Notes: generated from the sequence alone by a model not told the origin. A stretch of DNA of 30,976 bases from a virus (IMGVR_UViG_3300030444_000240), one strand, 5' to 3'; positions 1 to 19,723 are shown, counted from the first letter of the stretch. Translations and numbers: made by a program.

Positions 1-3000
1 TTTCTCGGTGCCATGACGGAGGATGATGCCCGTCCTGAGGCACTGCGCCGTTTTGAACTGATGGTGGAAGAGGTGGCGCGTAACGCGTCCGCGGTGGCAC
101 AGAACACGGCAGCCGCGAAGAAGTCAGCCAGCGATGCCAGCACATCAGCCCGTGAGGCGGCAACCCATGCGACTGATGCTGCAGGCTCAGCACGCGCAGC
201 CAGCACGTCAGCCGGACAGGCTGCTTCGTCGGCTCAGTCAGCGTCTTCCAGCGCAGGAACGGCATCAACAAAGGCCACTGAAGCATTAAAAAGTGCTGCC
301 GCTGCAGAGTCCTCAAAAAGCGCGGCGGCTACCAGTGCCGGTGCGGCGAAAACGTCAGAAACGAATGCGGCAGCGTCACAACAATCAGCAGCCACTTCTG
401 CATCCACCGCGACCACGAAAGCGTCAGAAGCAGCCACTTCAGCACGGGATGCGTCGGCTTCAAAAGAGGCGGCAAAATCATCAGAAACGAACGCATCATC
501 AAGCGCCAGTAGTGCCGCTTCCTCGGCAACGGCGGCAGGAAATTCCGCGAAGGCGGCAAAAACGTCCGAGACGAACGCCAGGTCTTCTGAAACGGCAGCG
601 GGACAGAGCGCCTCGGCTGCGGCAGGCTCAAAAACAGCGGCTGCATCATCTGCCAGCGCCGCGTCAACAAGTGCCGGGCAGGCCTCAGCCAGTGCCACCG
701 CTGCCGGAAAGTCGGCAGAAAGTGCCGCATCGTCTGCTTCAACAGCCACAACGAAGGCTGGCGAAGCCACTGAGCAGGCCACGGCAGCAGCGAGGTCTGC
801 TTCCGCAGCGAAGACATCCGAAACGAACGCAAAAGCGTCGGAAACCCGTGCAGAATCCTCAAAAACGGCAGCGGCATCGTCCGCCAGTTCGGCGGCGTCA
901 TCGGCATCATCGGCGTCTGCTTCAAAAGATGAGGCGACCAGACAGGCGTCAGCAGCGAAGGGCAGCGCCACGACGGCATCCACGAAGGCGACAGAGGCTG
1001 CTGGCAGTGCGACGGCAGCAGCTCAGAGCAAAAGTACGGCGGAATCTGCAGCAACGCGCGCTGAGACAGCGGCAAAACGGGCAGAGGATATTGCATCCGC
1101 CGTGGCGCTTGAGGATGCGAGCACGACGAAAAAGGGGATAGTACAGCTCAGTAGTGCGACTAACAGCACTTCCGAGTCACTGGCGGCAACACCAAAAGCC
1201 GTTAAGGCCGCGTATGACCTGGCTAACGGGAAATACACCGCACAGGATGCAACGACAGCACAGAAAGGGATAGTTCAGCTAAGCAGTGCGACCAACAGTA
1301 CGTCTGAAACGCTGGCGGCAACGCCAAAGGCAGTAAAATCAGCCTATGACAATGCAGAGAAACGTCTGCAGAAAGACCAGAACGGCGCTGATATACCCGA
1401 TAAGGGACGCTTCCTGAACAACATTAACGCGGTCAGTAAAACAGACTTTGCTGATAAGCGTGGTATGCGTTATGTGCGGGTTAACGCTCCTGCAGGTGCA
1501 ACATCTGGAAAATATTACCCTGTTGTTGTTATGCGTTCTGCTGGCTCAGTAAGCGAACTGGCATCAAGGGTCATTATCACCACGGCAACGCGAACCGCAG
1601 GCGATCCGATGAATAACTGCGAGTTTAACGGATTTGTTATGCCTGGTGGCTGGACTGACAGGGGGCGTTATGCTTATGGAATGTTCTGGCAATATCAAAA
1701 CAATGAACGAGCCATCCACTCAATAATGATGAGTAATAAGGGCGATGATTTGCGCTCTGTGTTCTATGTTGATGGCGCAGCTTTCCCTGTTTTTGCGTTT
1801 ATCGAAGATGGCCTGTCAATATCCGCACCTGGTGCTGATCTCGTTGTTAATGATACGACCTATAAGTTTGGGGCAACAAATCCAGCGACTGAATGTATCG
1901 CGGCGGACGTTATCCTTGATTTTAAGAGTGGGCGTGGTTTTTATGAGTCTCATTCGTTAATCGTTAACGATAACTTGTCATGCAAAAAACTTTTTGCCAC
2001 AGACGAAATTGTAGCGCGTGGTGGTAATCAGATTCGAATGATAGGTGGGGAGTATGGTGCATTATGGCGTAATGATGGCGCTAAAACTTACCTGCTGCTT
2101 ACCAATCAAGGTGATGTTTATGGTGGCTGGAATACATTAAGACCGTTTGCTATTGATAACGCAACCGGCGAACTGGTTATTGGAACCAAACTGTCCGCAA
2201 GTCTGAACGGTAATGCATTAACAGCAACAAAGCTGCAAACGCCAAGACTGGTTTCTGGTGTTGAGTTTGATGGTTCCAAAGATATTACTTTAACCGCCGC
2301 GCATGTGGCTGCTTTTGCCAGAAGGGCAACGGATACATATGCCGATGCGGATGGTGGCGTTCCCTGGAATGCCGAATCAGGCGCTTACAATGTCACCCGC
2401 TCTGGCGACAGCTATATTCTGGTTAACTTCTATACCGGAGTCGGAAGTTGCCGGACCCTGCAGATGAAGGCGCATTACAGAAATGGTGGTCTGTTCTACC
2501 GTTCTTCAAGAGACGGTTATGGTTTTGAGGAAGGCTGGGCAGAAGTTTATACCTCGAAAAATCTTCCACCAGAAAGCTACCCAGTCGGCGCACCAATCCC
2601 GTGGCCATCAGATACCGTTCCGTCTGGTTATGCCCTGATGCAGGGGCAGACTTTTGACAAATCTGCCTACCCGAAACTTGCAGCCGCTTATCCGTCAGGC
2701 GTGATCCCTGATATGCGTGGCTGGACGATTAAGGGCAAACCCGCCAGTGGTCGTGCCGTATTGTCTCAGGAACAGGACGGCATTAAATCGCACACCCACA
2801 GCGCCAGCGCATCCAGTACGGATTTGGGTACGAAAACCACATCGTCGTTTGATTACGGCACTAAATCCACGAATAACACCGGGGCGCATACCCATAGTTT
2901 AAGTGGCAGCACGAATGCAGCTGGTAATCACAGCCATAGAGATGGCCGTCGATTTAACCCCAGTGTTTTTAAAGATACTTATCAATATGGTTATACAAGC

Positions 3001-3267
3001 TCAGGTCAAAATACCTGGGATGTACAAGGCTCAGTAGGTATGTCTACGGGGTGGTTAGCTAATACCAGTACAGATGGTAATCATAGCCACTCACTGTCCG
3101 GCACAGCAGCATCTGCAGGTGCACACGCGCATACTGTCGGTATTGGTGCTCATACGCACTCTGTTGCGATTGGCTCACATGGACACACCATCACCGTTAA
3201 CGCTGCTGGTAACGCGGAAAACACCGTCAAAAACATCGCATTTAACTACATTGTGAGGCTTGCATAA
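1..3267 (+). CDS. stf: Side tail fiber protein, lambda Stf-like (5' partial; frame open from window position 1)
   Basis: Translation begins [24 protein letters not shown], then a long Ala/Ser/Thr-rich segment with KTSETNA repeats, and ends with PIPWPSD...[10 protein letters not shown] and His-rich GAHTHS/GSHGHT repeats and [11 protein letters not shown], matching the lambda Stf architecture as recalled. The central part (about 1380-2550) is a different, non-repetitive domain, and there is a tandem repeat of a [28 protein letters not shown] unit at about 1129-1350. Confidence 0.9.
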
Positions 3268-3838
3268 TGGCATTCAGAATGAGTGAACAACCACGGACCA
3301 TAAAAATTTATAATCTGCTGGCCGGAACTAATGAATTTATTGGTGAAGGTGACGCATATATTCCACCTCATACAGGTCTGCCTGCAAACAGTACCGATAT
3401 TGCACNNNNNNNNNNNNNNNNNNNNNNNNNNNNNNNNNNNNNNNNNNNNNNNNNNNNNNNNNNNNNNNNNCATCTCGTTGAAGATCATCGGGGTAAAACG
3501 GTTTATGACGTGGCTTCCGGCGACGCGTTATTTATTTCTGAACTCGGACCGCTACCGGAAAATGTTACCTGGTTGTCGCCGGGAGGGGAATATCAGAAGT
3601 GGAACGGCACAGCCTGGGTGAAGGATACGGAAGCAGAAAAACTGTTCCGGATCCGGGAGGCAGAAGAAACAAAAAACAGCCTGATGCAGGTAGCCAGTGA
3701 GCATATTGCGCCACTTCAGGATGCTGTAGATCTGGAAATCGCAACGGAGGAAGAAATCTCGTTGCTGGAAGCATGGAAGAAGTATCGGGTGTTGCTGAAC
3801 CGTGTTGATACATCAACTGCACCTGATATTGAGTGGCC
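3141..3838. repeat. Direct repeat copy 1 (stf 3' end plus tfa), about 700 bp, nearly identical by eye to 27794-28482
   Basis: Aligned by eye: tattggtgctcatacgcact... through ...gatattga(g/a)tggcc, with scattered substitutions. Copy 1 contains the N gap. Confidence 0.8.
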
Positions 3839-3860
3839 GATAATTCCTGTAACATCATAG
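3267..3860 (+). CDS. tfa: Tail fiber assembly protein (Tfa), copy 1; interrupted by an N gap
   Basis: [46 protein letters not shown] ... matches lambda Tfa as recalled; the ATG overlaps the stf stop (TAATG). Residues across 3406-3470 are unknown. Confidence 0.85.
3406..3470. other. Assembly gap or masked bases (65 N)
   Basis: Run of n characters in the sequence. Confidence 1.
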
Positions 3861-3972: not shown

Positions 3973-4926
3973 TTACCATATATCTATGGGTTTTGTTTTC
4001 TGCTCATCTAAACAAAATGCACAGATGTAAGCCCCCTTACTTCGGTTGTACTGAACCGTTTCTAAAGCAGAGTCAAGATGTTTACTATCAAAGTTCCAGC
4101 TTTTTTCCATAACAGAAACACATTTTCTGCAATAGAAACTTTCTTTTGAGTTAGTATCTCCTGAATCATTTTTAGTGTAGCCAAAGAATTTTTTTGCTGA
4201 TTCCTTTGAACATGCGGAAATGGCTGCAGTGAACTCATAATGAGTTTGAAGCATAGCCCATACAATACCTGAAAATTCTTCATCCTCGTCTTCATCTAAT
4301 CCTATATTAATGCCGCCAGAGGAATGTATTGCTTTATATTTATACCTATGCCATATCCAGTGTGCTGATTCAGTATTTAGATAGTTGTGAGCACGTACAA
4401 CTGATGTGAAAATTAGCTCTGGCATTATATCTGTTTTTTTATCAACCGTATGCATAAAACGATTTCTTAGAATGCGCATACTATTAAACCAAGTAATAAA
4501 GTCATCAGGCAGTGATTTAGAGGCGAAAGTATTATATACTTTAATTAAATCTTGGGCGTCTAATGTGTGGAAGTCTGAAAATGAAATGTTACCTTCACTA
4601 TCAGGTTTAGGTGTATTGCGAGTTGCATTCGTGATAAGTAGATAAGGTGATATTTCGACGATAAGTCCTTTTAGTCTGAATTCAATAGATTGAAGTATCA
4701 AATTAAAAGATGTAATCAATTTTGGTCTAGCAAATAACCAATAATGCTCTAAATTTTTAATATCTGATTCTGTATAGAATTCAGACGTTTTACAATAACT
4801 ATTCCAAAGGTTTATATCTCTGTAATCATAAGCTAAATCGGCAATTTTTTCCCAAGCCTCATTTACCATGTGGTCAGCCATTGTATAAAAATCAGTCTTT
4901 GTTGGAATGTCAGTTATCATTATCAA
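3973..4926 (-). CDS. Hypothetical protein with HEPN-like Rx4H motif and C-terminal CxxC...CxxC zinc-ribbon-like motif (candidate Abi-type protein)
   Basis: 317-aa ORF in AT-rich DNA just downstream of tfa. Contains RNRFMH (R-x4-H) in the middle and CRKC...CAFC near the C-terminus. No confident family assignment. Confidence 0.5.
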   Translation of the reverse strand: MIMITDIPTKTDFYTMADHMVNEAWEKIADLAYDYRDINLWNSYCKTSEFYTESDIKNLEHYWLFARPKLITSFNLILQSIEFRLKGLIVEISPYLLITNATRNTPKPDSEGNISFSDFHTLDAQDLIKVYNTFASKSLPDDFITWFNSMRILRNRFMHTVDKKTDIMPELIFTSVVRAHNYLNTESAHWIWHRYKYKAIHSSGGINIGLDEDEDEEFSGIVWAMLQTHYEFTAAISACSKESAKKFFGYTKNDSGDTNSKESFYCRKCVSVMEKSWNFDSKHLDSALETVQYNRSKGAYICAFCLDEQKTKPIDIW

Positions 4927-5157
4927 TCTACCTTTGGGTCTTTATTGTTGTCTATCAAGATATAATATTCAGGCTGGAGTGGCTAATGTTGATCTACTTA
5001 TTTTCTCCCGGTAAGTCAGTTTATCGCGATATAAGCCGCATTTGATTTTGGCGACTATGGTCGTGTTAGGTATGTATCTGGCGTGTTACTGCGCCAGATT
5101 AAATATAAACCAATAATATTAAAGGGTGTTACTCTCTTGACAGATTTAGGGAACAAA

Positions 5158-5393
5158 TCACTCGTCAGCTGACTCCCAAGTATCTTTCAGAGTTTCCTGA
5201 ACAAAAGTTTTAGCTGAATCTTTATCGGCGGTGCGCCTAACAGAAAAACCATCGTTGCTGGTGGCTTTTACGATCATCTCCACATCGTCATAATGCTCGC
5301 CAATGTATTGGGTTAATTCTTCCTTTAATGCGTCTACAGCGCCGTTTGGCATTTGGTCATTTTGTCTTTGGCTATGGAGATCTCAATACGCAT
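5158..5393 (-). pseudogene. dinI: DinI-family protein gene, apparently frameshifted near its 5' end
   Basis: ORF 5158-5352 ends ...[12 protein letters not shown] (DinI-like C-terminus). An upstream ATG at 5393 in another frame encodes [11 protein letters not shown] (DinI-like N-terminus) before a stop. A LexA box lies immediately upstream. Confidence 0.5.
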
Positions 5394-5406
5394 AACATTT
5401 CTTTTG

Positions 5407-5426
5407 TACTGCGTTTGTAGACAGTA
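5407..5426 (-). promoter_or_regulatory. Putative LexA (SOS) box upstream of the dinI-like gene
   Basis: TACTGCGTTTGTAGACAGTA fits CTG-N10-CAG with palindromic TACTG/CAGTA ends, 13 nt upstream of the ATG at 5393. Confidence 0.5.
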
Positions 5427-5634
5427 TTATTCTTATCTGTGTAAATAAACAGTATCAAGACTTCGTTTTAGCTGCATAAGAAAAAAGAGATGGATACATT
5501 CGGAAAGATTTTGATGGTGGTAGGCTAAGTGAATAGCCTAAAGGTGTTTTACCCCAATTATTCCCCGGTATTTCTCCGCATAAAAAACAATCATAAAAAC
5601 AACAGCCATAATAGGCTGGTTCTTAAGGGATTTT

Positions 5635-5674
5635 TGGTCCACGAGAGAATTTGAACCTCCGACCCCCGACACCC
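5635..5674 (-). other. tRNA 3'-end-like fragment (tRNA-Pro-like T-arm and acceptor, ending CCA); possible att remnant
   Basis: Reverse complement reads GGGGTCGGAGGTTCAAATTCTCTCGTGGACCA, resembling a tRNA T-loop and acceptor 3' end. No D-arm or anticodon arm upstream, and the T-stem pairing is imperfect. Confidence 0.3.
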
Positions 5675-5696
5675 CATAATGGTGTAATTAATCAGG

Positions 5697-6065
5697 TTAA
5701 ATATTTAGCAGATCCTCTACAATATCATTAAACCCAGATGCCTGTTTAGATACAGAATTGAATAAGTCTCTAAGTGCTTGTGTTTGCTCAAAAGTTTCCC
5801 AAAGTGTTTTATAACTTGGCGTTACAATTGCTAATACTAAGCCTTCCGCCCATGACCATTCATGTTCATCAAAATAGTAGCGATATTTTCTGCTGTATAT
5901 AACAAAATCCTTTTCCTTATATTTAGCATGAAACACAACTTGAATTATATCCTGTGTACCATTAACAAGGTTTTCAGGCGCATCAATTGCCATCCAATTT
6001 ATCATTTTTTGGACAGTTAACTTATTTAATGAAACAATTAGCTTTGTGGTTTTATCGTTATGCAT
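5697..6065 (-). CDS. Hypothetical protein (122 aa), second gene of a two-gene operon
   Basis: ORF in AT-rich DNA; its ATG lies 2 nt after the stop of the upstream ORF (TAAttATG). No recognisable motifs. Confidence 0.5.
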   Translation of the reverse strand: MHNDKTTKLIVSLNKLTVQKMINWMAIDAPENLVNGTQDIIQVVFHAKYKEKDFVIYSRKYRYYFDEHEWSWAEGLVLAIVTPSYKTLWETFEQTQALRDLFNSVSKQASGFNDIVEDLLNI

Positions 6066-6067
6066 AA

Positions 6068-6529
6068 TTAGTCCAGTTGCATATCTTTCACAATTTCGTT
6101 AACTCTTGAGTTGAGTATACTCAACTTCTCATAGAGCTTCCAGGCTTGGTCTTGGTCATTGATATTAATGGAGATTTCTTTTCTTCGAAAGATTCCTTTG
6201 GGTTTGACTTCATCAAAAAATATATCAATCTTTGAGCGTTCCTTGGTTGGAAGCCTGCTGAAAAGGCTTTCAGTTAGCACTGCACACTCAGTAAACTCCT
6301 TACGTATAAATTCTTTCTGAGTAACCCAGTCTCCAATAGCATCATTTATCAATGAGGCTTTTTTTTGAAGATTGCTATGGATTTCAGGTATTCGAACCTT
6401 GTTTCTGAGAGTGGCCTTCAATGAACGCGTCGTAAAAAAAAGTTTTACAGTTACAACAAAACCGACAATACCCGCTAGGGAGGATATGTCAGTTACCGTC
6501 TGTGATAGGGGCCAAGTCAGGATATCCAT
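6068..6529 (-). CDS. Hypothetical protein (153 aa) with one predicted N-terminal transmembrane helix, first gene of a two-gene operon
   Basis: Hydrophobic stretch SSLAGIVGFVVTVKLFF near the N-terminus; tightly coupled to the downstream ORF. Confidence 0.5.
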   Translation of the reverse strand: MDILTWPLSQTVTDISSLAGIVGFVVTVKLFFTTRSLKATLRNKVRIPEIHSNLQKKASLINDAIGDWVTQKEFIRKEFTECAVLTESLFSRLPTKERSKIDIFFDEVKPKGIFRRKEISININDQDQAWKLYEKLSILNSRVNEIVKDMQLD

Positions 6530-6559
6530 GATGAAAAATCCAATGCTTAAGTTGATACG

Positions 6560-6585
6560 AAAAAACCCGCATATGCGGGTTTTTT
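6560..6585 (-). terminator. Intrinsic terminator-like hairpin (bidirectional)
   Basis: A-run, cccgc-atat-gcggg stem-loop, T6 run. Confidence 0.5.
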
Positions 6586-6711
6586 CGTCGCTCGGGAGCC
6601 GCGGCTCCTTTGCGTATCCTTTTTTGTCTCCTCACCGTCTGGTCGGTGTCCTGCTGAGACTGCTAACTTCCTGTTTTTGTTGGTGTTGTCCTTACACCGT
6701 CCAATCATGAT

Positions 6712-6744
6712 TGGTGGAGCTGGCGGGAGTTGAACCCGAGTCCG
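6712..6744 (-). other. tmRNA (ssrA) 3'-end-like fragment; probable attachment-site core remnant
   Basis: Reverse complement GGACTCGGGTTCAACTCCCGCCAGCTCCACCA closely matches the E. coli ssrA 3' end as recalled (one mismatch). No tmRNA body upstream. Confidence 0.5.
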
Positions 6745-6816
6745 TATTTTTATAATTAGCTGAAATAAAACGATTAATACTAACCATTTTATTCTGCGGA
6801 TCTTTTGCGGCTCCTT

Positions 6817-7716
6817 TTATGTCTGGATGTGGTCGTCAACACATCCTCTTTTAAATACAGGCGCTTTTACCTTAGTTGGATCATCTGTTTTAAAGATTTT
6901 CAATCGTTCACTGAAGAACATTACCTCAGATCCTTTGTACCGATCTTGAGCACTGTAGTTTATTCCATATACTAATGATGATGTCTTATACATAGCTTGG
7001 ATCTCAGGAGTGTTATCGTAAGAAACAATCCAAGGTGTTTTAATATTATTCTGTACGACTTTTGCAACCCTAACATGATCATCATGATTATAATGGTTGA
7101 TATATAAACCTTTACCTTTTATGTAATAAGGTGGATCCAAATATGTTAATGAGTTTTGTGGCAATTGAATAACTATTTTTTTAATGAAATCAATTGCATC
7201 CATGTTATATAAATCTATTCTGTGACGATTTTCTGATATTTTATGGATTCGAGAAATCAAATCACTCTTATTATAGCGAGCGTCAAGCTTCCATTTCCCT
7301 TCTTGATTTTTACCGCCAATTACTCCACCTTTTAATATTCCAGAACGATTTGTTCTATTGAGAAAAAAGGTTGAGAAACCAATTGTTAAAAGATCATGGT
7401 CTTTAGGATTATTAATTATATCTTTCTGCCTAAACCATTCATCCATTGTAACTTCAGTTCTTTCAATTAAAGAACATAATTGATCTGCATGATTTAATAC
7501 ACTGTGCCAAAAAGCATAAACAGAAATATTAATATCATTAAGGATGATTTTTTCAGCTGCATTTAGATGTAACAGTTTCAATGCTAAACCAGCACCCCCA
7601 GCATATGGTTCGGCATAATGTATAGGCGAAAGATTATTTTCTTCAATAAGCCGAAGCATGAAATTTGCAAGCTTGCCTTTACCGCCAGGATAGCGAAGTG
7701 GGGTGTTAAAACGCAT
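6817..7716 (-). CDS. DNA N6-adenine methyltransferase, Dam/D12 class
   Basis: N-terminal RYPGGK, EPYAGGAG (AdoMet-binding motif I-like) and DPPY catalytic motif; 299 aa. Confidence 0.8.
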   Translation of the reverse strand: MRFNTPLRYPGGKGKLANFMLRLIEENNLSPIHYAEPYAGGAGLALKLLHLNAAEKIILNDINISVYAFWHSVLNHADQLCSLIERTEVTMDEWFRQKDIINNPKDHDLLTIGFSTFFLNRTNRSGILKGGVIGGKNQEGKWKLDARYNKSDLISRIHKISENRHRIDLYNMDAIDFIKKIVIQLPQNSLTYLDPPYYIKGKGLYINHYNHDDHVRVAKVVQNNIKTPWIVSYDNTPEIQAMYKTSSLVYGINYSAQDRYKGSEVMFFSERLKIFKTDDPTKVKAPVFKRGCVDDHIQT

Positions 7717-7750
7717 ATGATACCTCTAAATGTCAGATCTAAAGTATATC

Positions 7751-7789
7751 AAAAAAAGGGCTTTGTGGCCATCACATAAAGCCCTTTTT
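7751..7789 (-). terminator. Intrinsic terminator between the OLD-like gene and the MTase gene
   Basis: gggcttt-loop-aaagccc hairpin flanked by an A7 run and a T5 run; on the minus strand the stem is followed by a T-run. Confidence 0.6.
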
Positions 7790-7795
7790 AATCAA

Positions 7796-9529
7796 TTAGT
7801 TATCTGACAGATATGATGAGATGGTAGCAGAATCGACACCATGTCCACTTGTCATAATAACTTTAAGACTCTTTATTAGTTCATTCTTGAAGCTATCCGA
7901 TTGCACAGGATTTTTCTCGACCCAATATCGATATGGGTTATCTTTAACTCGCCCTTTTACTTGGGCCTGAAATTGAGTCGTATGTGCAAAATCTTTAAAC
8001 AGTTTTCTAACTATCCCGCCATGGTTTTTGTTAACTTTTTTATAATTATCTATAAGGATTTTTAAATCAATCGGAGCGTTACCAATCTTTAGCGTTGCAA
8101 TTATGTCTTTAGCTGTTTTCATAAAAACAGCTTTTGTAAATTTATTTTTATTTTCCCAATATGCATCATCAGGTGGTAAATTATATAAAAACTCAAAAAT
8201 CATTTGGTCTGGAGGTAAGGTGCTTGGAAGCAAACATAAGTTTTTTTCTTTTTTGGCTTTTTTTGCATTAGCACTATTGTCGTGAACAACATCACCGTCT
8301 AAGACGATCAAGCTTTTAGCTGTAAATTCTGGTATTTTTCTTGCCATTAAGTCAAGCATGGCAGAGCAGCTAATATTTATATTCCCTAATGGATTTAATA
8401 TTTTATTTATTTTTCGATCTGTTATCAATTGTTTGAAAAAGTCGAAACCTTCTTTGTCTTCAAAATATACATTTGCCTTTGGAAGACAAATGTCATCATT
8501 AATTTTTACAGTTTCAACATGTAAATCAGCGTGGATATCTGTCCATGAAAGATTATTCTTTGTTTTAATATCTCCATATGTGTCTGTAAGATATATTGTT
8601 TTAAAGCTATCACTATCTTGTTTTGAACGATTATAGATATCCTCTATTATTAATGGAGAGTGCGAGGTCATGATTATTTGCAGATCGTATTGTTTTGCTG
8701 CTTTAGTTAGAATATTAATTAGCTCTAACTGTGCAGCAGGGAAAAGACCTGCATCGGCTTCATCAATTAACAATATTCCGCCATGATAATCAGAATAAGT
8801 TTCCTTCAATCTTTTAAATGAAAAAATTGCTTGGATTAATTGTCCAACATTATCTTCACCAACAGATACTGATTGGTGATCATAATTGTCACCATGGACA
8901 ACCATTGAATCGATAGTACCTTTTGTTGCTGTTACTGAGCTTCCATTGTTTTTTAGTAAGAGTTGGTTACTCATCATTCTAATTTCATCAGAATTTTCAT
9001 TGATGTACTGAACATCCCGTGTTGAGTAATCAGTCCTTAATGTAATAGGAAGAAGTCGTGCTAAGCTTAAAAAAATAACAGGATGAGTAACGTTTCTACT
9101 TTGGTTTTTTTCCGGTATTGAATCATTTCCCCTGACTACAGGCCTTGATTTATCTCTGTCACTGTAGCTGTATAAACCTAATGTTAGTTTTTCAAGATGT
9201 TTGTTCGATGCACCATCATAGACACTAATTTTGACGTCCATTGAACCAGGAACATCAAATTGTTCTGAAAGCCTAAAATGTTCGCTGAAAGCTGACTTGA
9301 AGCTGCCATTTGTTAATGTTTTATATTGTGTTAAATCAGTCTCAGGGTTTTTGGTAAAGTCCTTTGTAAAGCTAAATATTTGGGCGATAATGCCAAGAAT
9401 TGTGGATTTAGATGTGCCATTTTTACCACAAATAACAGTTAGGCGAGAACCAAACTCGATGTTTATATTTTTCAGTCCGCGAAACTTCACAACATTTATA
9501 TTTTTTAGTTTGGTAATTTGATTTGCCAT
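7796..9529 (-). CDS. OLD-family ATP-dependent nuclease-like protein (ABC ATPase plus C-terminal Toprim-like domain)
   Basis: Walker A ICGKNGTSKST, Walker B ILLIDEAD, TSHSP motif, then C-terminal VYFEDKEGFDFF and LIVLDGD (DxD). Start chosen at MANQITKL (9529), which has a GGAG 9-13 nt upstream and a palindromic hairpin beyond it; the ORF track extends to 9580. Confidence 0.7.
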   Translation of the reverse strand: MANQITKLKNINVVKFRGLKNINIEFGSRLTVICGKNGTSKSTILGIIAQIFSFTKDFTKNPETDLTQYKTLTNGSFKSAFSEHFRLSEQFDVPGSMDVKISVYDGASNKHLEKLTLGLYSYSDRDKSRPVVRGNDSIPEKNQSRNVTHPVIFLSLARLLPITLRTDYSTRDVQYINENSDEIRMMSNQLLLKNNGSSVTATKGTIDSMVVHGDNYDHQSVSVGEDNVGQLIQAIFSFKRLKETYSDYHGGILLIDEADAGLFPAAQLELINILTKAAKQYDLQIIMTSHSPLIIEDIYNRSKQDSDSFKTIYLTDTYGDIKTKNNLSWTDIHADLHVETVKINDDICLPKANVYFEDKEGFDFFKQLITDRKINKILNPLGNINISCSAMLDLMARKIPEFTAKSLIVLDGDVVHDNSANAKKAKKEKNLCLLPSTLPPDQMIFEFLYNLPPDDAYWENKNKFTKAVFMKTAKDIIATLKIGNAPIDLKILIDNYKKVNKNHGGIVRKLFKDFAHTTQFQAQVKGRVKDNPYRYWVEKNPVQSDSFKNELIKSLKVIMTSGHGVDSATISSYLSDN

Positions 9530-9551
9530 GTTTCTATCTTGCTCCGTAAAA

Positions 9552-9570
9552 TGGCCACAAATTGTGGCCA
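9552..9570. other. Perfect 9+1+9 palindrome between the int 3' end and the OLD-like start
   Basis: tggccacaa-a-ttgtggcca; on the minus strand it is followed by ATTTTA. Could be the int terminator or a recombination or regulatory site. Confidence 0.4.
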
Positions 9571-9587
9571 ATAGTTTCATGCTTGGA

Positions 9588-10754
9588 TTATATTGTTATC
9601 TTCTTCAAGCTTGTTTGTCCATCATATTCCTTCAGATATGAGCCATAGTGCCTGAAAAGCATCTCAGGCCCTTTATGCCCCATTTGAGCTGCAAGCCAAA
9701 ACAGGTTTGCTCCCCGGCTGATATGTCTGGTGGCGAATGTATGCCTGGTTTGATATGGGTTTCTGTAACGAATACCTGCTTTTCGCAATGTTGGCACCCA
9801 TGCTTTTTTCCTAATTGCATCAGCACTTGCCCAGGGTTTATTGGTCTTTGGATCTTCAAAGACAGTAGCATCCTTCATGAATGTAAATGGCTTCTGGTTT
9901 ATCAACGCCAACATTGCTTCTTCAGTCAGTTCAACTTTACGGGTACCGGCTTTTGTCTTTGTTCCTTTGATAACTCCGACAACACTTGCGCTCTGAACAT
10001 GGGCTGTTTTTCCAACAAAGTCGATATCATGCCATCGTAGGGCACATAATTCAGAACTACGCAGGCCTGTATGTATGGCGAACCGGAACAGATTTTCCCA
10101 TTGTTTGTTTCCGGCTGCTGCTAGTAATGCATCAACTTCTGCTGGTGATAGCGGATCAACCACATAGCTGCTTTCTGCTTCTGACTTATCACTTTGGTAG
10201 CGCGAAGCAGTTACCAACGATACGGGGTTAATTTGAAGTACCCCATCGGTTACGGCTTCATCAAGTGCTGACCGCAGGAAAGATAACTGGTTGCGAATTG
10301 TTTTTAAGGTCGTTTTCTGGCTTTGAATCCACGCTTTCAGGATTGCTGGTGTTAATTCACTTGCAGGGCAAATGTGGAGTGAGGCTAACGCACTACGGCA
10401 TTTTTTATAACCACCAATCGTAGATGGTGAAAGTTTTCTCGTTTCGCAGATTTCAAGGTATTCGTCCAGGTACATTTTTACCGTTTTGCCTGCAGCAGCA
10501 TTACCAAAAATTTTCAAACGAGCAGAACGGGGAAAATATTCCGCATAAATGAATGTTCCCCTTTCGATCTTATTATGAATTTCGCCGAGTGTGCGCTCGG
10601 CGTATTTAATGTTCTTTGGTGTTACTTCCAGATTGGAAAGAGGCTCACGACATTTAACGCCTTTGTAGGTGAAAGTTATATTGATCGTTTCGCCCTGGCG
10701 GTGTTTCCTGATTGTTACGCCGCGCGGTAGTTTGAGCAGTTTTGTCTGGCCCAT
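9588..10754 (-). CDS. int: Tyrosine site-specific integrase
   Basis: 388 aa; C-terminal catalytic region with RHTFATRH (HxxR) and LFWLAAQMGHKGPEMLFRHYGSY (catalytic Tyr); N-terminal arm-binding-like segment. Confidence 0.9.
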   Translation of the reverse strand: MGQTKLLKLPRGVTIRKHRQGETINITFTYKGVKCREPLSNLEVTPKNIKYAERTLGEIHNKIERGTFIYAEYFPRSARLKIFGNAAAGKTVKMYLDEYLEICETRKLSPSTIGGYKKCRSALASLHICPASELTPAILKAWIQSQKTTLKTIRNQLSFLRSALDEAVTDGVLQINPVSLVTASRYQSDKSEAESSYVVDPLSPAEVDALLAAAGNKQWENLFRFAIHTGLRSSELCALRWHDIDFVGKTAHVQSASVVGVIKGTKTKAGTRKVELTEEAMLALINQKPFTFMKDATVFEDPKTNKPWASADAIRKKAWVPTLRKAGIRYRNPYQTRHTFATRHISRGANLFWLAAQMGHKGPEMLFRHYGSYLKEYDGQTSLKKITI

Positions 10755-10933
10755 TTTGCAACCTCACTAAGATCAATCCACCTCTCCTTAACGCCTTCAA
10801 CCTTTAAAACCTGAACACCTTCACGCCAAACACCGCGCTGTACACGTTTGTTTATTGCTTCAGGAGTTTCGCCAGTTTCTTTGCAATAAGTTGAGATAGG
10901 AACACAATCGAGGTTCAGCATATGTTTCTCCAC
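10715..10933 (-). CDS. xis: Excisionase-like small DNA-binding protein
   Basis: 72-aa ORF overlapping the int start on the same strand, as in lambdoid xis-int; basic, W-rich small protein. Confidence 0.55.
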   Translation of the reverse strand: MEKHMLNLDCVPISTYCKETGETPEAINKRVQRGVWREGVQVLKVEGVKERWIDLSEVAKWARQNCSNYRAA

Positions 10934-10980
10934 TTAGCCCGCTGCACATGGGCAGTAATATCAAATTCCAGTCCTGATAA

Positions 10981-11196
10981 TTAATTTTGTTCTCTGGTTG
11001 CTACTTGTTTTATTGGCCTGATGCTGTCCAGGAGCAGACGGCGGCGCATGTTTGGCGCGCCCCAACGGTAACCAGTCTTTTTGTCGTAGGATTCACAACG
11101 TCCGACAACCCAGGAGGTTTCAGTGGAATGTAATTTCATCCGCTTTTCACCGTCTCGGGTGATAACAATTCCTGTATGAGTTTTTATCACGCTCAT
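10981..11196 (-). CDS. Hypothetical phage early protein (71 aa)
   Basis: ORF in the leftward early operon; start overlaps the upstream gene stop. Confidence 0.4.
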   Translation of the reverse strand: MSVIKTHTGIVITRDGEKRMKLHSTETSWVVGRCESYDKKTGYRWGAPNMRRRLLLDSIRPIKQVATREQN

Positions 11197-11555
11197 TTTT
11201 TATTCTCCGGTGCTTTCGGCATTACTGCCCAGTGGGTAATATTGACGTTTTCAAGGTCCCCGACCTGAAATGTCCACTGCCATTCTCCGGTTTCTTTTTG
11301 CCCCCATGTGTACCAGAGAGAACGCCAGCCAATCAGCCAGCCTTCTCCATTAGCATCAAATAACAGAACACTTTCATGTGCTGGCGGCAGTTCAGCTGAC
11401 ACTGGTATTACTTTGTTTTCCAGTGCTGCACATTTAGCTTCAAGCGCATCGAATTTACGTATCAGGTATTCAGCATCCGTTTCATTCACTTTCAGATCTC
11501 GCGGTACACATTTCCCGCGAAGAAACCCTTCCATTTCGAAAACATTCATGCGCAT
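11193..11555 (-). CDS. Hypothetical phage early protein (120 aa)
   Basis: ORF in the leftward early operon, translationally coupled to its neighbours. Confidence 0.45.
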   Translation of the reverse strand: MRMNVFEMEGFLRGKCVPRDLKVNETDAEYLIRKFDALEAKCAALENKVIPVSAELPPAHESVLLFDANGEGWLIGWRSLWYTWGQKETGEWQWTFQVGDLENVNITHWAVMPKAPENKK

Positions 11556-12082
11556 TTGCGTAACTCCGATAACTCGTTGAAGCGCTCAATAAACATCCCG
11601 TAGGCATGGCTCGGTGCCAGTGGAATCACGTTGAACATCTCTGTTGCCGGGATACCTTCCAGTACAGGCCAGAAAGAGCCATCATCAAGCCCGAGATCGC
11701 GGCGTTCGGTTGCCAGCATGATGAGATCGGCATATTTCACAGGCGTGCTCATAACCGTGGGTAACCCGTATTTCTCACGGATTACGGCGTCTATTTTTTC
11801 TTCCATCCGTTTATAGTCGGGAAGAAGGCGTTTCAGTGGCGCGGGGATGTCCTGGCAATACGCTTCTGTCGCATCATGCATTAACGCTTCAAAAGCAAAT
11901 TCCTGCGGTACCAGCTGGCTGCAAAGCACCGCATGTTGGGCGACGCTGTAGAAGTGTGAAAGATGGCCGGCAAAGCGACAGATATTTGAAAGGGAAACCG
12001 CGATATCGTTAATATCGATGTTGTCTTTATTTATCCTGTCATAATAAAAATGCTTCCCGGAAAAAGTTTTAATAAATGACAT
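11546..12082 (-). CDS. HD-domain phosphohydrolase-like protein
   Basis: FAGHLSHFYSVAQH ... HDATEAY resembles H...HD metal-dependent phosphohydrolase motifs. Start set at MSFIKTF (GGAG RBS); the ORF track extends to 12142. Confidence 0.55.
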   Translation of the reverse strand: MSFIKTFSGKHFYYDRINKDNIDINDIAVSLSNICRFAGHLSHFYSVAQHAVLCSQLVPQEFAFEALMHDATEAYCQDIPAPLKRLLPDYKRMEEKIDAVIREKYGLPTVMSTPVKYADLIMLATERRDLGLDDGSFWPVLEGIPATEMFNVIPLAPSHAYGMFIERFNELSELRKCA

Positions 12083-12627
12083 TTTGTTCTCCACGTTATA
12101 TGCGCTGCACCGCGCTGAATTCGGGTAAAAGGAAGCCCTCACCGTCCGGCGATTATTGAGTCAATTACATTTCCATAAATGCCCCCGTAGGGGCGGTTAG
12201 TTTCTCCACAAAACAGAGAAGAACACCTGCGGTGGCAGCCGCCCGGATGGATTGGGTTATGAGCCCGTCGTCCGATGATGCTCTTCTCTGTTTTGTAAAA
12301 AGGACGGTACCAGCCGGAAGCAAGGGTACAAGCTGGTACCGCCAAGACAACACACAGCATAAAGTTGTGGTGCCGGGTGCCTCCCGGTGCCTGGCGAAGG
12401 TTGTACACCAGACGGGTGGGTATCCACAGAAGGTCGACTGTCAGCCTTAACCTTAACCCGCGTGCGCTGAGCCGCATTCACCACAACGCTAAGGATTCTC
12501 TCTGGTTGAAAATACTTAGCTGTTATGTGCCTGCTTTTAGCCACATCAGGCGAGGTGGACCTGGTTATTCCCCAACAACAAGGATTCGGTATAATCTGGA
12601 TATCCCAACAACAGGTAGGAAGGAAAT

Positions 12628-12711
12628 ATGTACGTAGATAGCAATGAAAAATTTCATGTTCCGGTAAATCAGAGACCAGCACCGATCCCTGAGCCGAAAC
12701 CTGAAATGTAA
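12628..12711 (+). CDS. Small ORF (27 aa) preceding the membrane protein gene
   Basis: TATAAT at 12590-12595, AGGAAGG RBS, ATG at 12628; encodes MYVDSNEKFHVPVNQRPAPIPEPKPEM. Speculative. Confidence 0.3.
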   Translation: MYVDSNEKFHVPVNQRPAPIPEPKPEM

Positions 12712-12721
12712 GGGAATAGAG

Positions 12722-13201
12722 ATGACTCGAGACGATCTAGCATTCGATATTCATTATTCTTTCTTTCTTGAGAAAATGAATTACACCCTTTTAAATCGGA
12801 TAGACAAGAGCATAACTCTTGTTCTCATTGTCTTGGGCTTTTCTGTTTTTGCGCCATATAGCAATATGTTTATTTTTGGCGCATCTGTAGCTATTTTGTC
12901 GGTGCTTCAATTGGTATACCAATTTGGGCAGGAAGCTGGCTTATCAAAGGAACAGATGCGACAGTATAAAAGGTTGATTGTTGAGTTTTCCTCCCTTTCT
13001 GATGACGAACTACGCACTCGGTTTTTAAAGGTTCAAGACGCTGATAGTAATCCATGGAGATCTTTACAAGATGCTGCGTTCAAACGGACCTGTATTGCGC
13101 TGGGACGTGTTGATGAGTCAGAAATATCATTCATGCATAGCGTTATCGCATGGTTTGCTGGAGATTTGCCTCGGTCAAAAAGGTGTAATAATGACAAATA
13201 G
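12722..13201 (+). CDS. Membrane protein of unknown function (two predicted TM helices), convergent with cI
   Basis: 159 aa; hydrophobic segments ITLVLIVLGFSVFAPY and IFGASVAILSVLQLVY. Lies in the immunity region on the strand opposite the repressor, with its own putative promoter. Confidence 0.55.
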   Translation: MTRDDLAFDIHYSFFLEKMNYTLLNRIDKSITLVLIVLGFSVFAPYSNMFIFGASVAILSVLQLVYQFGQEAGLSKEQMRQYKRLIVEFSSLSDDELRTRFLKVQDADSNPWRSLQDAAFKRTCIALGRVDESEISFMHSVIAWFAGDLPRSKRCNNDK

Positions 13202-13431
13202 AATTCCCATAATCCCTAACCATGTACCTCCAAAGCCCAGACCACCATCACCAAAGTCACACAGGCTTTATGAGTATGAATTAATAATGGATTCTATATT
13301 GAGATGACCAAATGAATGCATTTATATATACATGGAAAGAGGATCATATACCCTTAAAACCTCGTCCTTCACCGCCAGAACCGAAGCCAAAATCCCGTTA
13401 AGTGTTGGGGATCTCCAGATTGTTAAAGAGC

Positions 13432-13456
13432 GAAGCGTCCTATAGGGCGCTTTTTT
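13432..13456 (+). terminator. Possible intrinsic terminator (imperfect hairpin plus T6)
   Basis: gcgtcc-tata-gggcgc followed by tttttt. Confidence 0.35.
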
Positions 13457-13573
13457 GTTGCTAACGAATCATCCTGGACTTCATATGCCCCAGGCGGCTA
13501 CTTCGTGGGCGTCCTACCTGTTCGTTGTTTCTCTTGGGTACATTATGTATCTCAAAGGTACATTGTCAAGTAT

Positions 13574-13595
13574 AAAAAAACCTGCCGAAGCAGGT
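13574..13595 (-). terminator. Intrinsic terminator directly downstream of the repressor gene
   Basis: acctgc-cgaa-gcaggt hairpin followed on the minus strand by a U7 run; 14 nt from the cI stop. Confidence 0.6.
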
Positions 13596-13608
13596 TCATA
13601 AACATTGA

Positions 13609-14283
13609 TTAGGCTTTGATTTTGTATCTTCTTGGTTTTCCTGAGAAAATCACTGTACCAATTATAGAGCAATTACCGTTGATCTTAATGTAAGGTTCAG
13701 GCCAGTTTGGGTTTAATGCTTTGAGGTAACGCTGTGTTCCATCTTCTATCAACCGCTTGAAGGTGGTTTCGCCTGTATCGTGCATCAATGCAATAACGTC
13801 GTCACCGTGGCAGGCAGGGACTTCAGGATCAACAAAAATCATGTCTCCCGGGCGGTACTCATCAATCATTGAATCACCAATCACCCGCAAGATATAAGTC
13901 ATTTCGCCACAGGGTACAGGGCAGGGGTAAGTTTCTGCTGTGCTCAAATCAACCTCAGAATAGCCAACTTCTTTCCATGCTCCGGCCTGTACCCATGATA
14001 TGACAGGGACTAACGTTATTTGTTTGTTAGTGATTGAAACATCAGGTTTTTTTGTGATGTTCGTGGTCTGGTGTTCTTGATCAAGCCATCCGACAGGCAG
14101 GTCGAAACATTTTTCGATGTGCCGCGCCATGCTGTCACCGATATTTTTAGTAGCACCATCTCCCATAAACCTGCTGGTCTGGGTTGGCTCGCGATCAATC
14201 ATAGTGGCAAAGGAAGAATTCCCGCCAACACCATCTCTCAGTTTTCTGGCGTTAGACCGCCGGATGTCATGGATTGTTTTCAT
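13609..14283 (-). CDS. CI-like prophage repressor with S24 (LexA-like) autopeptidase domain
   Basis: 224 aa; C-terminal ILRVIGDSMIDEYRPGDMIFVD ... FKRL resembles the S24 Ser/Lys dyad region. Divergent from a Cro-like gene, with palindromic operators between them. Confidence 0.85.
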   Translation of the reverse strand: MKTIHDIRRSNARKLRDGVGGNSSFATMIDREPTQTSRFMGDGATKNIGDSMARHIEKCFDLPVGWLDQEHQTTNITKKPDVSITNKQITLVPVISWVQAGAWKEVGYSEVDLSTAETYPCPVPCGEMTYILRVIGDSMIDEYRPGDMIFVDPEVPACHGDDVIALMHDTGETTFKRLIEDGTQRYLKALNPNWPEPYIKINGNCSIIGTVIFSGKPRRYKIKA

Positions 14284-14298
14284 AACGAAATTAAAACC

Positions 14299-14368
14299 CT
14301 TGTACCGTTAAGGTACAAGTATCTTGAAGGTTCATTTCAATCATGTAATATGTACACCGGAGGTACAT
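14299..14368. promoter_or_regulatory. Operator and promoter region between cI-like and cro-like genes
   Basis: Two palindromes sharing TGTAC/GGTACA half-sites: CTTGTACCGTTAAGGTACAAG (14299-14319) and ATGTACACCGGAGGTACAT (14350-14368). Confidence 0.55.
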
Positions 14369-14373
14369 ATTGT

Positions 14374-14574
14374 ATGAAAGCGTATTGGGACTCTTTAACC
14401 AAAGAACAGCAGGGCGAGTTGGCCGGAAAAGTTGGCTCAACACCTGGCTACTTACGGCTGGTTTTCAATGGCTATAAAAAAGCCAGTTTTGTGCTGGCTA
14501 AAAAACTTGAGCAATGCACGTCAGGTGCAATTACGAAATCTGACTTAAGACCGGATATCTATCCGAAAGATTAA
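14374..14574 (+). CDS. Cro-like (YdaS-type) small HTH regulator
   Basis: 66-aa ORF starting immediately after the operators (MKAYWDSLTKEQQGELAGKVGSTPGYLRLV...). The track ORF 14071-14574 overlaps cI and is an over-extension. Confidence 0.6.
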   Translation: MKAYWDSLTKEQQGELAGKVGSTPGYLRLVFNGYKKASFVLAKKLEQCTSGAITKSDLRPDIYPKD

Positions 14575-14605
14575 CAGAACACCTTCAATTTTTAACCACA
14601 GAACG

Positions 14606-16002: not shown

Positions 16003-16231
16003 TCCGTTGATCCTCAATATTTGCCGTTTGCTTCAGCGTAAAAAAACATCAATTCCTACAGTTGGGCAGTGGTACACCACGCCTGCAGGGCATGTTCTAC
16101 GTGTTAGCCTGGTTGACCGTGAATGCCAGAAGGTGATTTGTGAACCGCTGGGCCGTAATTACCGCGTCAGTATGCCGCTTATAGCCTTTCGCTCCGGAAA
16201 AAACATGAAGCATCTCGGAGGTGCAGCATGA
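15995..16231 (+). CDS. Hypothetical small protein (78 aa)
   Basis: ORF translationally coupled to its neighbours in the early-right operon. Confidence 0.4.
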   Translation: MLNPLILNICRLLQRKKTSIPTVGQWYTTPAGHVLRVSLVDRECQKVICEPLGRNYRVSMPLIAFRSGKNMKHLGGAA

Positions 16232-18893: not shown

Positions 18894-18912
18894 TTAAGAG
18901 GAGAAACGAAGT

Positions 18913-19722: not shown

Positions 19723-19723
19723 G

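What the first reader, a model, noticed from the sequence alone, without database searches (positions are those of the whole stretch)
3141..3838. About 700-bp direct repeat (stf 3' end plus tfa) flanking a 24-kb segment, with vegetative gene order across it
Copies at 3141-3838 and 27794-28482 are nearly identical by eye and in direct orientation. Reading left to right, stf-tfa-cargo-int-early-Q-lysis-cos-Nu1 is the order of a circular or vegetative lambdoid genome, not of a simple integrated prophage where int and the tail fiber genes are at opposite ends. This suggests tandem prophages, recombination between related prophages, or a collapsed repeat. Copy 1 contains an N gap, so assembly uncertainty here is real. 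The repeat could also mediate excision or deletion of the intervening 24 kb.
Basis: seen in the sequence. Interest (0 to 1): 0.55.

Follow-up and report, generated by a model that had tools for sequence, protein, structure and literature searches.

The report
Two prophages sharing a tail-fibre module
The 0.7-kb "repeat" is the same tail-fibre-tip plus chaperone module carried by two different E. coli prophages that lie joined together, an apparently intact phage in circular gene order and a decayed resident prophage, which is an ordinary kind of prophage mosaic.

Summary
Positions 3141-3838 and 27793-28482 are direct copies, about 95% identical, about 24.65 kb apart start to start.

It is not an in-place duplication. 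Copy 1 is identical to the stf-tfa of ssrA-integrating lambdoid phages ("P"). Copy 2 is identical to a decayed prophage ("R") in which Nu1 is fused to the last 127 nt of stf. That fusion ORF occurs in 9 independent metagenome contigs.

The "vegetative order" reading is correct at nucleotide level. Positions 6530-6816 are an intact attP: the ssrA 3' end core (6712-6744) with phage DNA on both arms. The P arm and core match a 44.6-kb circular phage record.

The window switches cleanly from P to R inside a DUF968 gene (20408-20487).

Best reading: a circular P genome joined to R by one homologous crossover. Whether this happened in the cell or in the assembler cannot be decided here.

A simple Int-made tandem lysogen at ssrA does not fit the right flank. 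A collapsed repeat is not supported.

All the parts are known kinds. Interest is low to moderate.

The parts
1..3267 (+). stf, the side tail fibre gene of phage P. Its 5' end (about 264 nt) is cut off by the window edge.
   Evidence: Frame 1 is open from base 1. Pfam finds phage_tail_N (only profile positions 93-134), Phage_fiber_2, Gp34_trimer and Collar. Window base 1 aligns 264 nt inside the stf of L070.
3141..3838 (+). Repeat copy 1: the last 127 nt of stf plus tfa up to 22 nt before its stop.
   Evidence: It is identical to the UK_Dog_Liverpool prophage over 3141-3405 and 3471-3838.
3267..3860 (+). tfa copy 1, the tail fibre assembly chaperone of P. It contains the N run 3406-3470.
   Evidence: ORF list. 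The homologous gene in L003 and L070 is annotated as tail fiber assembly protein.
3973..6529 (-). Right-arm cargo of P: a 317-aa ORF, a DinI-like ORF (5158-5352), a 122-aa ORF and a 153-aa ORF.
   Evidence: The same genes in the same order lie between tfa and ssrA in 10 of 10 looked-up genomes and in L003. The three large ORFs have no Pfam or PADLOC hits.
6530..6816 (.). Intact attP of P. It consists of the P arm (6530-6711), the core (6712-6744), which is the last 33 nt of ssrA with one mismatch at 6739, and the P' arm (6745-6816).
   Evidence: The left arm and core are identical to the ssrA-proximal junction of UK_Dog and to the circular record pZ1323HEC0010-3. The core and right arm are identical to the distal junctions of UK_Dog and 19AR1321.
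6817..9580 (-). Left-arm cargo of P: a D12-class adenine methyltransferase (6817-7716) and an AAA/OLD-like ATPase (7796-9580).
   Evidence: Pfam MethyltransfD12, and AAA_15/AAA_21. PADLOC PD-Lambda-5_B at E 5e-124, and PtuA/GajA-like ATPase hits.
9588..10754 (-). Tyrosine integrase of P, the type that integrates at ssrA.
   Evidence: Pfam Arm-DNA-bind_2 plus Phage_integrase. It is the same gene as in prophages at ssrA in L002, L003 and L050.
10715..20407 (.). Early region of P, from the putative xis through yfdR, ymfK/T/L, replication and nin-like genes and KilA-N to the 5' part of DUF968.
   Evidence: About 99.95% identical to the KCJ3K291 prophage over 6711-20487. The closest named phage is SfV, about 97% identity over roughly half of query 3860-20400.
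20408..20487 (+). P-to-R crossover interval inside the DUF968 gene (19730-20719).
   Evidence: Against P (L002), differences appear only from 20488 onward. Against R (L005, L001), differences appear only up to 20407. L005 then has 0 differences through to 29438.
20488..27098 (+). Late region of the resident defective prophage R: Q (20737-21114), lipocalin (-), YbgA-like, AraC-like HTH, holin, DUF1327, lysozyme, a DUF2514 Rz-like gene, and a 230-aa ORF (-).
   Evidence: 99.6-100% identical to S43 (L001) and L005.
27099..27110 (+). Lambda-type cosN cohesive-end sequence GGGCGGCGACCT.
   Evidence: Read directly. Positions 27061-27792 are 97.7% identical to lambda and DE3 across their annotated cos site and nu1.
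27288..27792 (+). Nu1', the first 505 nt of the lambda-type small terminase gene. It is truncated by a deletion.
   Evidence: Pfam Phage_Nu1, profile positions 1-164 of 164. Alignment to lambda and DE3.
27793..27919 (+). 'stf remnant, the last 127 nt of a tail fibre gene. It is joined to Nu1' at 27792|27793 with a 2-nt 'TA' microhomology. The fusion ORF 27288-27908 is out of frame with stf.
   Evidence: The exact 206-aa fusion ORF is present in 9 other contigs.
27793..28482 (+). Repeat copy 2.
   Evidence: It is 100% identical to S43 and L005.
27919..28500 (+). tfa copy 2, an intact 193-aa gene of R.
   Evidence: Pfam Caudo_TAP at E 6e-43.
28501..30976 (.). Right arm of R: an AT-rich spacer, a 61-nt serU 3' fragment (29360-29420), an N run (29439-29491), an AraC-family regulator (29997-30749) and an IS remnant (30791-30976, -).
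   Evidence: In S43, L005, L006 and L007 this arm is followed by yagP'-paoDCBA.

Best explanation
The repeat is not a duplication made in place. It is one conserved module, the C-terminal tip of the side tail fibre Stf plus its assembly chaperone Tfa, carried by two different lambdoid prophage genomes that lie next to each other.

The left genome (P) is an ssrA-integrating, SfV/e14-like lambdoid phage. In the window it is circularly permuted: stf-tfa-cargo-attP-cargo-int-early. Its attP is intact, so this copy was not inserted through its own integrase site.

The right genome (R) is a decayed resident prophage of the S43 type. In relatives it sits between fbpC and paoD. It has lost everything between codon 168 of Nu1 and the last 127 nt of stf through an illegitimate deletion with 2-nt microhomology. 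It keeps Q, lysis genes, a lambda cos, Nu1', 'stf and an intact tfa.

P and R are joined by one clean crossover within an 80-nt interval of their shared DUF968 gene.

The most likely mechanism is inferred, not shown. A circular P genome recombined once with R through RecA or a phage recombinase (Campbell-type insertion by homology). That places P's tail end upstream of attP-int-early and leaves R's late end downstream. The two stf-tip/tfa modules then end up as direct repeats 24.65 kb apart.

Shown: the repeat, the lineage purity of each copy, the intact attP, the deletion junction and the single P-to-R switch. Inferred: that the join happened in a cell, and that a reciprocal hybrid junction lies left of the window.
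For: Copy 1 and its flanks (1264-6744) are 99.6-99.97% identical to the UK_Dog_Liverpool ssrA prophage, with 0 differences inside the repeat. Copy 2 and its flanks are 100% identical to S43 over 27793-29438. They have 0 differences from metagenome contig L005 over 20408-29438.

For attP, both arms are phage DNA. The P arm and core match the circular 44.6-kb record pZ1323HEC0010-3, whose gene order int-cargo-attP-153aa-122aa-DinI-317aa-tfa-stf-lom-J is the same as in the window. In 10 of 10 looked-up genomes the 153-aa gene normally abuts smpB-ssrA.

The single switch is placed by two comparisons. P-type KCJ3K291 differs from the window only after 20487. R-type L005 and S43 differ only before 20408.

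The Nu1'-'stf fusion ORF is found in 9 independent contigs. One of them is a 69-kb contig that carries R alone between fbpC and paoD.

Published experiments show that lambda recombines with defective prophages in this kind of stf-tfa homology (657 bp, 96% identical, longest perfect stretch 115 bp) and in the lysis-cos-nu1 region (PMC3945230).
Against: The reciprocal junction and R's left arm would lie left of the window and cannot be seen.

None of 5,426 complete E. coli genomes has this attP junction at 80% coverage or more, the one-piece Nu1'-'stf junction or the hybrid DUF968 allele. The arrangement is therefore unreplicated.

The source contig was not found in any collection, so read support cannot be judged.

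The window has two N runs whose lengths (65 and 53) differ from relatives (56 and 52). This may mean a scaffolded short-read assembly.

A graph-based misjoin in the 80-nt perfect stretch, between circular phage DNA and R, would produce the same sequence.
Confidence: 0.5

Rival explanations
1. Assembly chimera. The sample contains P as excised circular, replicating or virion DNA, which gives the attP junction. It also contains R in a chromosome of the same or another strain. The assembler walked from P into R through the shared DUF968 sequence. Both copies of the module are real, but they are not 24 kb apart on one molecule.
For: The switch lies in a perfect 80-nt stretch shared by P and R. Circular P-type DNA does get assembled as a separate replicon (pZ1323HEC0010-3). 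The arrangement is unreplicated in 5,426 complete genomes. R with this junction is otherwise seen only in metagenome contigs. The N runs have lengths that do not match relatives.
Against: There is only one switch, with no back-and-forth mosaic, and there are no N runs at the switch or at attP. A longer perfect stretch (137 nt, 20564-20700) lies nearby and was not the switch point. One in vivo crossover explains all features equally well. The DUF968/Q boundary is a natural mosaic joint in many genomes.
Confidence: 0.3
2. An integrase-made tandem array of two ssrA phages (attL-P1-attP-like junction-P2-attR). Later, homologous recombination between P2 and R at another chromosomal locus (inversion or translocation) replaced P2's late half.
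For: The junction cargo-P arm-core-P' arm-methylase is what lies between two tandem prophages that use the same att site. The window's right-arm cargo is closest to UK_Dog, while its int side is closest to KCJ3K291, whose own right-arm cargo is different. The two sides of attP could therefore belong to two phages. Tandem prophages are common in E. coli (PMC8112680).
Against: It needs at least two events plus a large rearrangement. The right flank is R's arm, not ssrA. No complete genome shows such a tandem junction with this cargo.
Confidence: 0.1
3. A true local duplication or a collapsed repeat of one stf-tfa segment, arising either biologically or as an assembly artefact.
For: The direct orientation, and the N run inside copy 1.
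Against: The copies differ at 32 of 633 compared positions. Each is identical to a different independent lineage. The left edge of copy 2 is a Nu1 deletion junction that is also found without copy 1 in 9 contigs.
Confidence: 0.02

Closest known systems
noh-'stf-tfa remnants of E. coli cryptic lambdoid prophages: Qin (nohA, stfQ', tfaQ) and DLP12-type (nohD, A', 'tail fibre, tfa)
   Same: R keeps Q, lysis genes, a lambda-type cos and a Nu1 homologue, followed directly by a 3' tail-fibre remnant and an intact tfa. All head and tail genes are deleted. Annotated relatives show nohA-J'-tail fibre-tfaQ and nohD-terminase'-'tail protein-tfa-AraC.
   Different: The deletion endpoints are specific: Nu1 nt 505 joined to the last 127 nt of stf. 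S43 has a different junction on otherwise identical flanks. NCTC9041-type loci keep more of both genes. The locus in relatives is fbpC/paoD, not the Qin or DLP12 sites.
Recombination between infecting lambdoid phages and defective prophages (De Paepe et al. 2014, PMC3945230; also the classical lambda qsr' and lambda rev hybrids, cited from my own knowledge)
   Same: Exchange happens through short, slightly diverged homology in defective prophages. This includes a stf-tfa block of 657 bp at 96% identity, with a 115-bp longest perfect stretch. The repeat here is about 690 bp at 95%, with a 115-nt longest perfect stretch.
   Different: Those are double-crossover or replacement hybrids recovered as phage. 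Here the structure looks like a single-crossover cointegrate left in the chromosome, and the crossover is in DUF968, not in stf-tfa.
[quoted passage not shown] 2021, PMC8112680)
   Same: Two lambdoid prophage genomes are adjacent at one locus, with duplicated late or tail modules.
   Different: Those clusters arise by integrase action at att sites, either shared attB or attB inside a prophage. Here attP is intact and the join is inside a homologous gene.
ssrA-integrating SfV/e14-like lambdoid prophage family (for example the prophages of UK_Dog_Liverpool, KCJ3K291 and 19AR1321, and the circular pZ1323HEC0010-3)
   Same: P has the same integrase, att core (the ssrA 3' end), early region and stf-tfa-cargo arm.
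   Different: In those chromosomes the genome is opened at attP and flanked by ssrA. In the window it is closed at attP and opened in DUF968.

Membership tests
Cryptic lambdoid prophage with terminase-to-tail-fibre deletion (Qin/DLP12 type) | A Nu1 (noh) homologue downstream of a lambda-type cos | tested here: met
   Pfam Phage_Nu1 at E 1e-100. Positions 27061-27792 are 97.7% identical to the cos-nu1 region of lambda and DE3.
Cryptic lambdoid prophage with terminase-to-tail-fibre deletion (Qin/DLP12 type) | Head and tail genes are absent. Nu1 or A is joined directly to a 3' tail-fibre remnant followed by tfa. | tested here: met
   The junction is at 27792|27793. tfa is intact. The same fusion ORF occurs in 9 contigs.
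Integrase-made tandem lysogen at ssrA | The junction between the two genomes has phage DNA on both sides of the att core | tested here: met
Integrase-made tandem lysogen at ssrA | The array ends at the attachment gene, with ssrA next to the right-hand prophage's tail-fibre and cargo arm | tested here: not met
   The right-hand end is tfa-serU'-AraC-IS remnant of R. In relatives this is followed by yagP'-paoD. No tmRNA or tRNA gene is found in the window.
Campbell-type insertion by homologous recombination into a resident prophage | The inserted genome is circularly permuted and has an intact attP | tested here: met
Campbell-type insertion by homologous recombination into a resident prophage | A single clean parental switch inside a segment homologous in both partners | tested here: met
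   The switch is at 20408-20487 in DUF968. P and R are about 97% identical there.
Campbell-type insertion by homologous recombination into a resident prophage | A reciprocal hybrid junction at the other end of the insert | not testable with these tools
   It would lie about 25-30 kb left of the window. The source contig was not found.
In-place segmental duplication or att-type terminal repeat | The copies derive from one another (near-identical, same lineage) or are att cores | tested here: not met
   The copies are 95% identical, and each is identical to a different lineage. The real att core is at 6712-6744, not in the repeat.
Assembly chimera | No reads or read pairs span the join, or read depth steps at the join | not testable with these tools
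   No reads or coverage are available. The source was not located.

The most novel reading that the evidence does not exclude
A natural isolate in which an apparently intact temperate phage became a prophage without using its own integrase or attP. It would have done so by one homologous crossover into a decayed resident prophage. If P's own packaging module is lambda-type, P's cos and R's cos would then bracket a full-length genome. That genome could be packaged straight from the chromosome, giving a P phage that carries R's Q-lysis module. R's retained stf-tip/tfa cassette would sit as a direct repeat able to swap or delete the intervening 24 kb.
Probability: 0.35. Interest if true: 0.45.

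Novelty: new member of a known kind. Interest (0 to 1): 0.3.

Why it matters
If the join is real, it is a natural example of a cryptic prophage acting as a landing pad for an incoming phage that bypasses its own att site. Laboratory lambda genetics predicts this route, but it is rarely documented in genomes. The region also shows how stf-tip/tfa cassettes kept in dead prophages create recombination substrates next to live phages. For annotation, the practical lesson is that prophage callers would misplace the boundaries here. The attP, not the repeat, marks the phage ends, and the second stf-tfa belongs to a different, dead element. If the join is an assembly chimera, the region is a useful warning case.

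Tried and rejected
(1) I tried to find the source contig in order to see the left side, without success.
- An exact look-up of the stf ORF found nothing.
- A related-loci scan in genome contigs gave at best 90% identity.
- Exact attP and Nu1'-'stf junction patterns found nothing in viral contigs.
- The attP pattern found nothing in metagenome contigs.

(2) I looked for the same P/R hybrid elsewhere.
- A 106-nt pattern across the switch hit 9 metagenome contigs. They are only 95-98% identical around it, so they are other alleles and not the hybrid.
- The DUF968, LexA-like, Q and Dam-like proteins are too widespread to be diagnostic, being listed in 293 to 24,625 blocks of the collection.

(3) I rejected the repeat as an att duplication. 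The att core lies elsewhere.

(4) I rejected gene conversion or collapse between the copies. There are no shared derived SNPs.

(5) At first I read the window ends as contig ends at repeats. I dropped this because the ends may simply be arbitrary cuts of a fixed-size window.

(6) I considered the serU 3' fragment as R's attR. The same tfa-serU'-AraC module also sits at the lambda att locus in NCTC9041, so it travels as cargo. I did not pursue it.

Full report
**Observation**

A repeat search of the whole window finds only two long direct-repeat blocks and no inverted repeats. The blocks are 3141-3405 vs 27793-28057 (98%) and 3471-3770 vs 28114-28413 (94%).

Alignment extends the second block to 3838/28481. 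It also shows that the two blocks are one repeat, interrupted by a 65-nt N run in copy 1 and 56 nt in copy 2.

Counting directly gives 6 differences in 265 nt and 26 in 368 nt. That is 32 of 633, or 95% identity, with a longest perfect stretch of 115 nt.

Copy 1 is the last 127 nt of stf plus tfa. Copy 2 is a stf remnant plus tfa. One correction is that the window starts about 264 nt inside stf.

**What the window is made of**

The window is E. coli-like DNA built from three lineages.

1. Positions 1-6744 (stf, tfa, a 317-aa ORF, a DinI-like ORF, and 122-aa and 153-aa ORFs) are 99.6-99.97% identical to the right arm of a lambdoid prophage integrated at ssrA in strain UK_Dog_Liverpool.
2. Positions 6711-20487 are about 99.95% identical to the left arm of the ssrA prophage of strain KCJ3K291. 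They hold an adenine methylase, an AAA ATPase, the integrase and the early genes up to DUF968.
3. Positions 20408-30976 match a defective prophage of strain S43 at 99.6-100%. They have 0 differences from metagenome contig L005 over 20408-29438. These positions hold Q, lipocalin, YbgA-like, HTH, holin, lysozyme, Rz-like, cos, Nu1', 'stf, tfa, a serU fragment, an AraC regulator and an IS remnant.

I call the first two parts P and the third R.

**The vegetative order is real at nucleotide level**

In normal lysogens the 153-aa gene abuts smpB-ssrA (10 of 10 places). The methylase-ATPase-int arm lies at the far end of the prophage, next to a partial ssrA copy.

In the window the two arms are joined. 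Positions 6712-6744 are the last 33 nt of ssrA with one mismatch.
- The left side is identical to the ssrA-proximal phage arm of UK_Dog.
- The right side is identical to the distal phage arm of UK_Dog and 19AR1321.

The same left arm plus core occurs in a 44.6-kb circular record, pZ1323HEC0010-3. This is a P-family phage in circular form. Its gene order is int-cargo-attP-153aa-122aa-DinI-317aa-tfa-stf-lom-J...terminase...lysis-Q-DUF968...int.

**Copy 2 is a deletion scar in a different, dead prophage**

Upstream of copy 2 lie a lambda-type cos (GGGCGGCGACCT at 27099-27110) and nu1. Together they are 97.7% identical to lambda.

Nu1 runs for 505 nt and is then joined at 27792|27793 to the last 127 nt of stf. 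The join has a 2-nt TA microhomology and is out of frame.

The exact 206-aa fusion ORF is present in 9 independent metagenome contigs. One is a 69-kb contig in which R, without any P, sits between fbpC/afuB' and yagP'-paoDCBA. The junction is therefore real and older than this window.

S43 has a different junction on otherwise identical flanks. It keeps less of Nu1 and 113 nt more of stf. NCTC9041-type loci keep nohD, 1 kb of the large terminase gene and 1.2 kb of the tail fibre gene. This pattern looks like independent nested deletions during prophage decay.

It is the architecture known from the Qin and DLP12-type cryptic prophages.

**The repeat is shared ancestry, not duplication**

Inside the repeat, copy 1 has 0 differences from the P-type UK_Dog prophage. 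Copy 2 has 0 differences from R-type S43 and L005. There is no sign of collapse or gene conversion between the copies.

The left edge of the repeat is set by R's deletion endpoint. In S43, which keeps more stf, similarity to copy 1 continues only 26 nt further, to 3115, and then decays. The natural module is therefore the Stf C-terminal tip plus Tfa.

This is expected from established knowledge of Stf and Tfa, because Tfa is the chaperone for the fibre tip. That link is my inference and was not tested here.

**How P and R are joined**

Compared with P-type KCJ3K291, the window has 2 substitutions and one 3-nt indel between 15000 and 20487, and dense differences from 20488 onward. Compared with R-type L005 and S43, it differs at 8 or more sites up to 20407. 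After that it has none against L005 through 29438, and only one (at 23414) against S43 up to 27617.

The switch therefore lies in an 80-nt interval of the DUF968 gene, where P and R are about 97% identical.

The gene downstream of DUF968 varies widely among relatives. Different Q types and different antisense cargo follow it, so this is a natural mosaic joint.

**Mechanism**

One event explains the intact attP, the permuted P, the single switch and R's chromosomal right flank. That event is a single homologous crossover between a circular P genome and R, a Campbell-type insertion by homology rather than by integrase.

It predicts that P's head and tail genes lie left of the window. Beyond them would be a reciprocal DUF968 hybrid and R's left arm.

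Experiments with lambda show such recombination with defective prophages, including in a 657-bp, 96%-identical stf-tfa block (PMC3945230).

I cannot distinguish this from an assembler walking from circular P DNA into R through the same 80-nt perfect stretch.
- The arrangement is unreplicated. No complete E. coli genome (0 of 5,426) has the attP junction at 80% coverage or more, the one-piece Nu1'-'stf junction or the hybrid DUF968 allele.
- The source contig could not be found.
- The two N runs (65 and 53 nt) do not match the 56 and 52 nt in relatives.

An integrase-made tandem array is a weaker rival. The right flank is not ssrA, and extra rearrangements would be needed. In its favour, the two sides of attP are closest to two different reference prophages.

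My estimates are: in vivo homologous cointegrate 0.5, assembly chimera 0.3, tandem array plus rearrangement 0.1, local duplication or collapse about 0.02.

**Consequences of the repeat**

Recombination between the two copies is plausible. They total about 690 bp at 95% identity, with a 115-nt perfect stretch. The comparable stf-tfa homologies between lambda and the Qin and Rac prophages gave recombinants at about 2x10^-6.

Such an event would delete attP, int, the early genes, R's lysis genes, cos and Nu1'. It would fuse P's stf to a hybrid tfa and R's right arm. This was not tested.

**Verdict**

Linkage of the two copies on one molecule is unverified.

All components are known kinds: a cryptic prophage scar, a shared stf/tfa module, and mosaic recombination. 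The only unusual point is a possibly chromosomal prophage with an intact attP. Interest is low to moderate.

Noticed in passing
window 6817-9580 (- strand): Between int and attP lie a D12 adenine methylase and an OLD/ABC-type AAA ATPase. The methylase matches PADLOC PD-Lambda-5_B over its full length (E 5e-124). The ATPase's best PADLOC hits are PtuA-, GajA- and AriA-like. This looks like defence cargo. The slot is hypervariable in relatives: a ParA module in pZ1323HEC0010-3 and DarT plus NADAR in L071 and L079.
   Followed up: partly
window 29360-29420: This stretch is an exact 61-nt match to a sequence that I recalled from memory as the 3' end of tRNA-Ser(CGA), serU. That identity was not checked against a reference. 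It lies in R's non-coding right arm and ARAGORN does not call it. The same tfa-serU'-AraC-IS module also sits at the lambda att locus (ybhC/ybhB) in NCTC9041-type genomes. It may be a fossil att site or an attB carried inside a prophage.
   Followed up: partly
window 27617-27793 vs L001 20718-20831: S43 and the window carry different Nu1'-'stf deletion junctions on flanks that are otherwise 99.6-100% identical. NCTC9041-type loci keep nohD, a partial large terminase gene and 1.2 kb of tail fibre. This points to repeated independent nested deletions at this spot.
   Followed up: partly
window 6557-6711: About 155 nt of the attP arm next to the ssrA-like core closely resemble the native chromosomal sequence downstream of ssrA in 19AR1321 (L050), with scattered differences. 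The phage therefore carries a copy of the host's ssrA-downstream region, including a terminator-like hairpin, in addition to the 33-nt core.
   Followed up: partly
window 3406-3470 and 29439-29491: The two N runs are 65 and 53 nt long, but every close relative has 56 and 52 nt there. The hidden sequence in relatives looks ordinary. The 65-nt run keeps tfa in frame (+9 nt). Whether these are scaffold gaps or masking is unknown.
   Followed up: partly
window 21270-24024: Three non-phage-looking genes sit between Q and the holin: a lipocalin (- strand), a YbgA/DUF1722-like protein and an AraC-type HTH protein. This Q-lipocalin-YbgA module is very widespread, being listed in 24,625 blocks of the collection. 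In other relatives the position just downstream of Q holds Kiwa (KwaAB) or a KAP NTPase.
   Followed up: no
window 26252-26944 (- strand): A 230-aa ORF in an AT-rich stretch between the Rz-like gene and cos has no PADLOC hit and is annotated as hypothetical in S43. It is a possible moron or defence gene.
   Followed up: no
window 3973-6529; L013 10001-10833: The 153-aa and 122-aa cargo ORFs have no Pfam or PADLOC hit. In some genomes (for example GCA_031118815.1) they remain next to ssrA after the rest of the prophage is gone.
   Followed up: no
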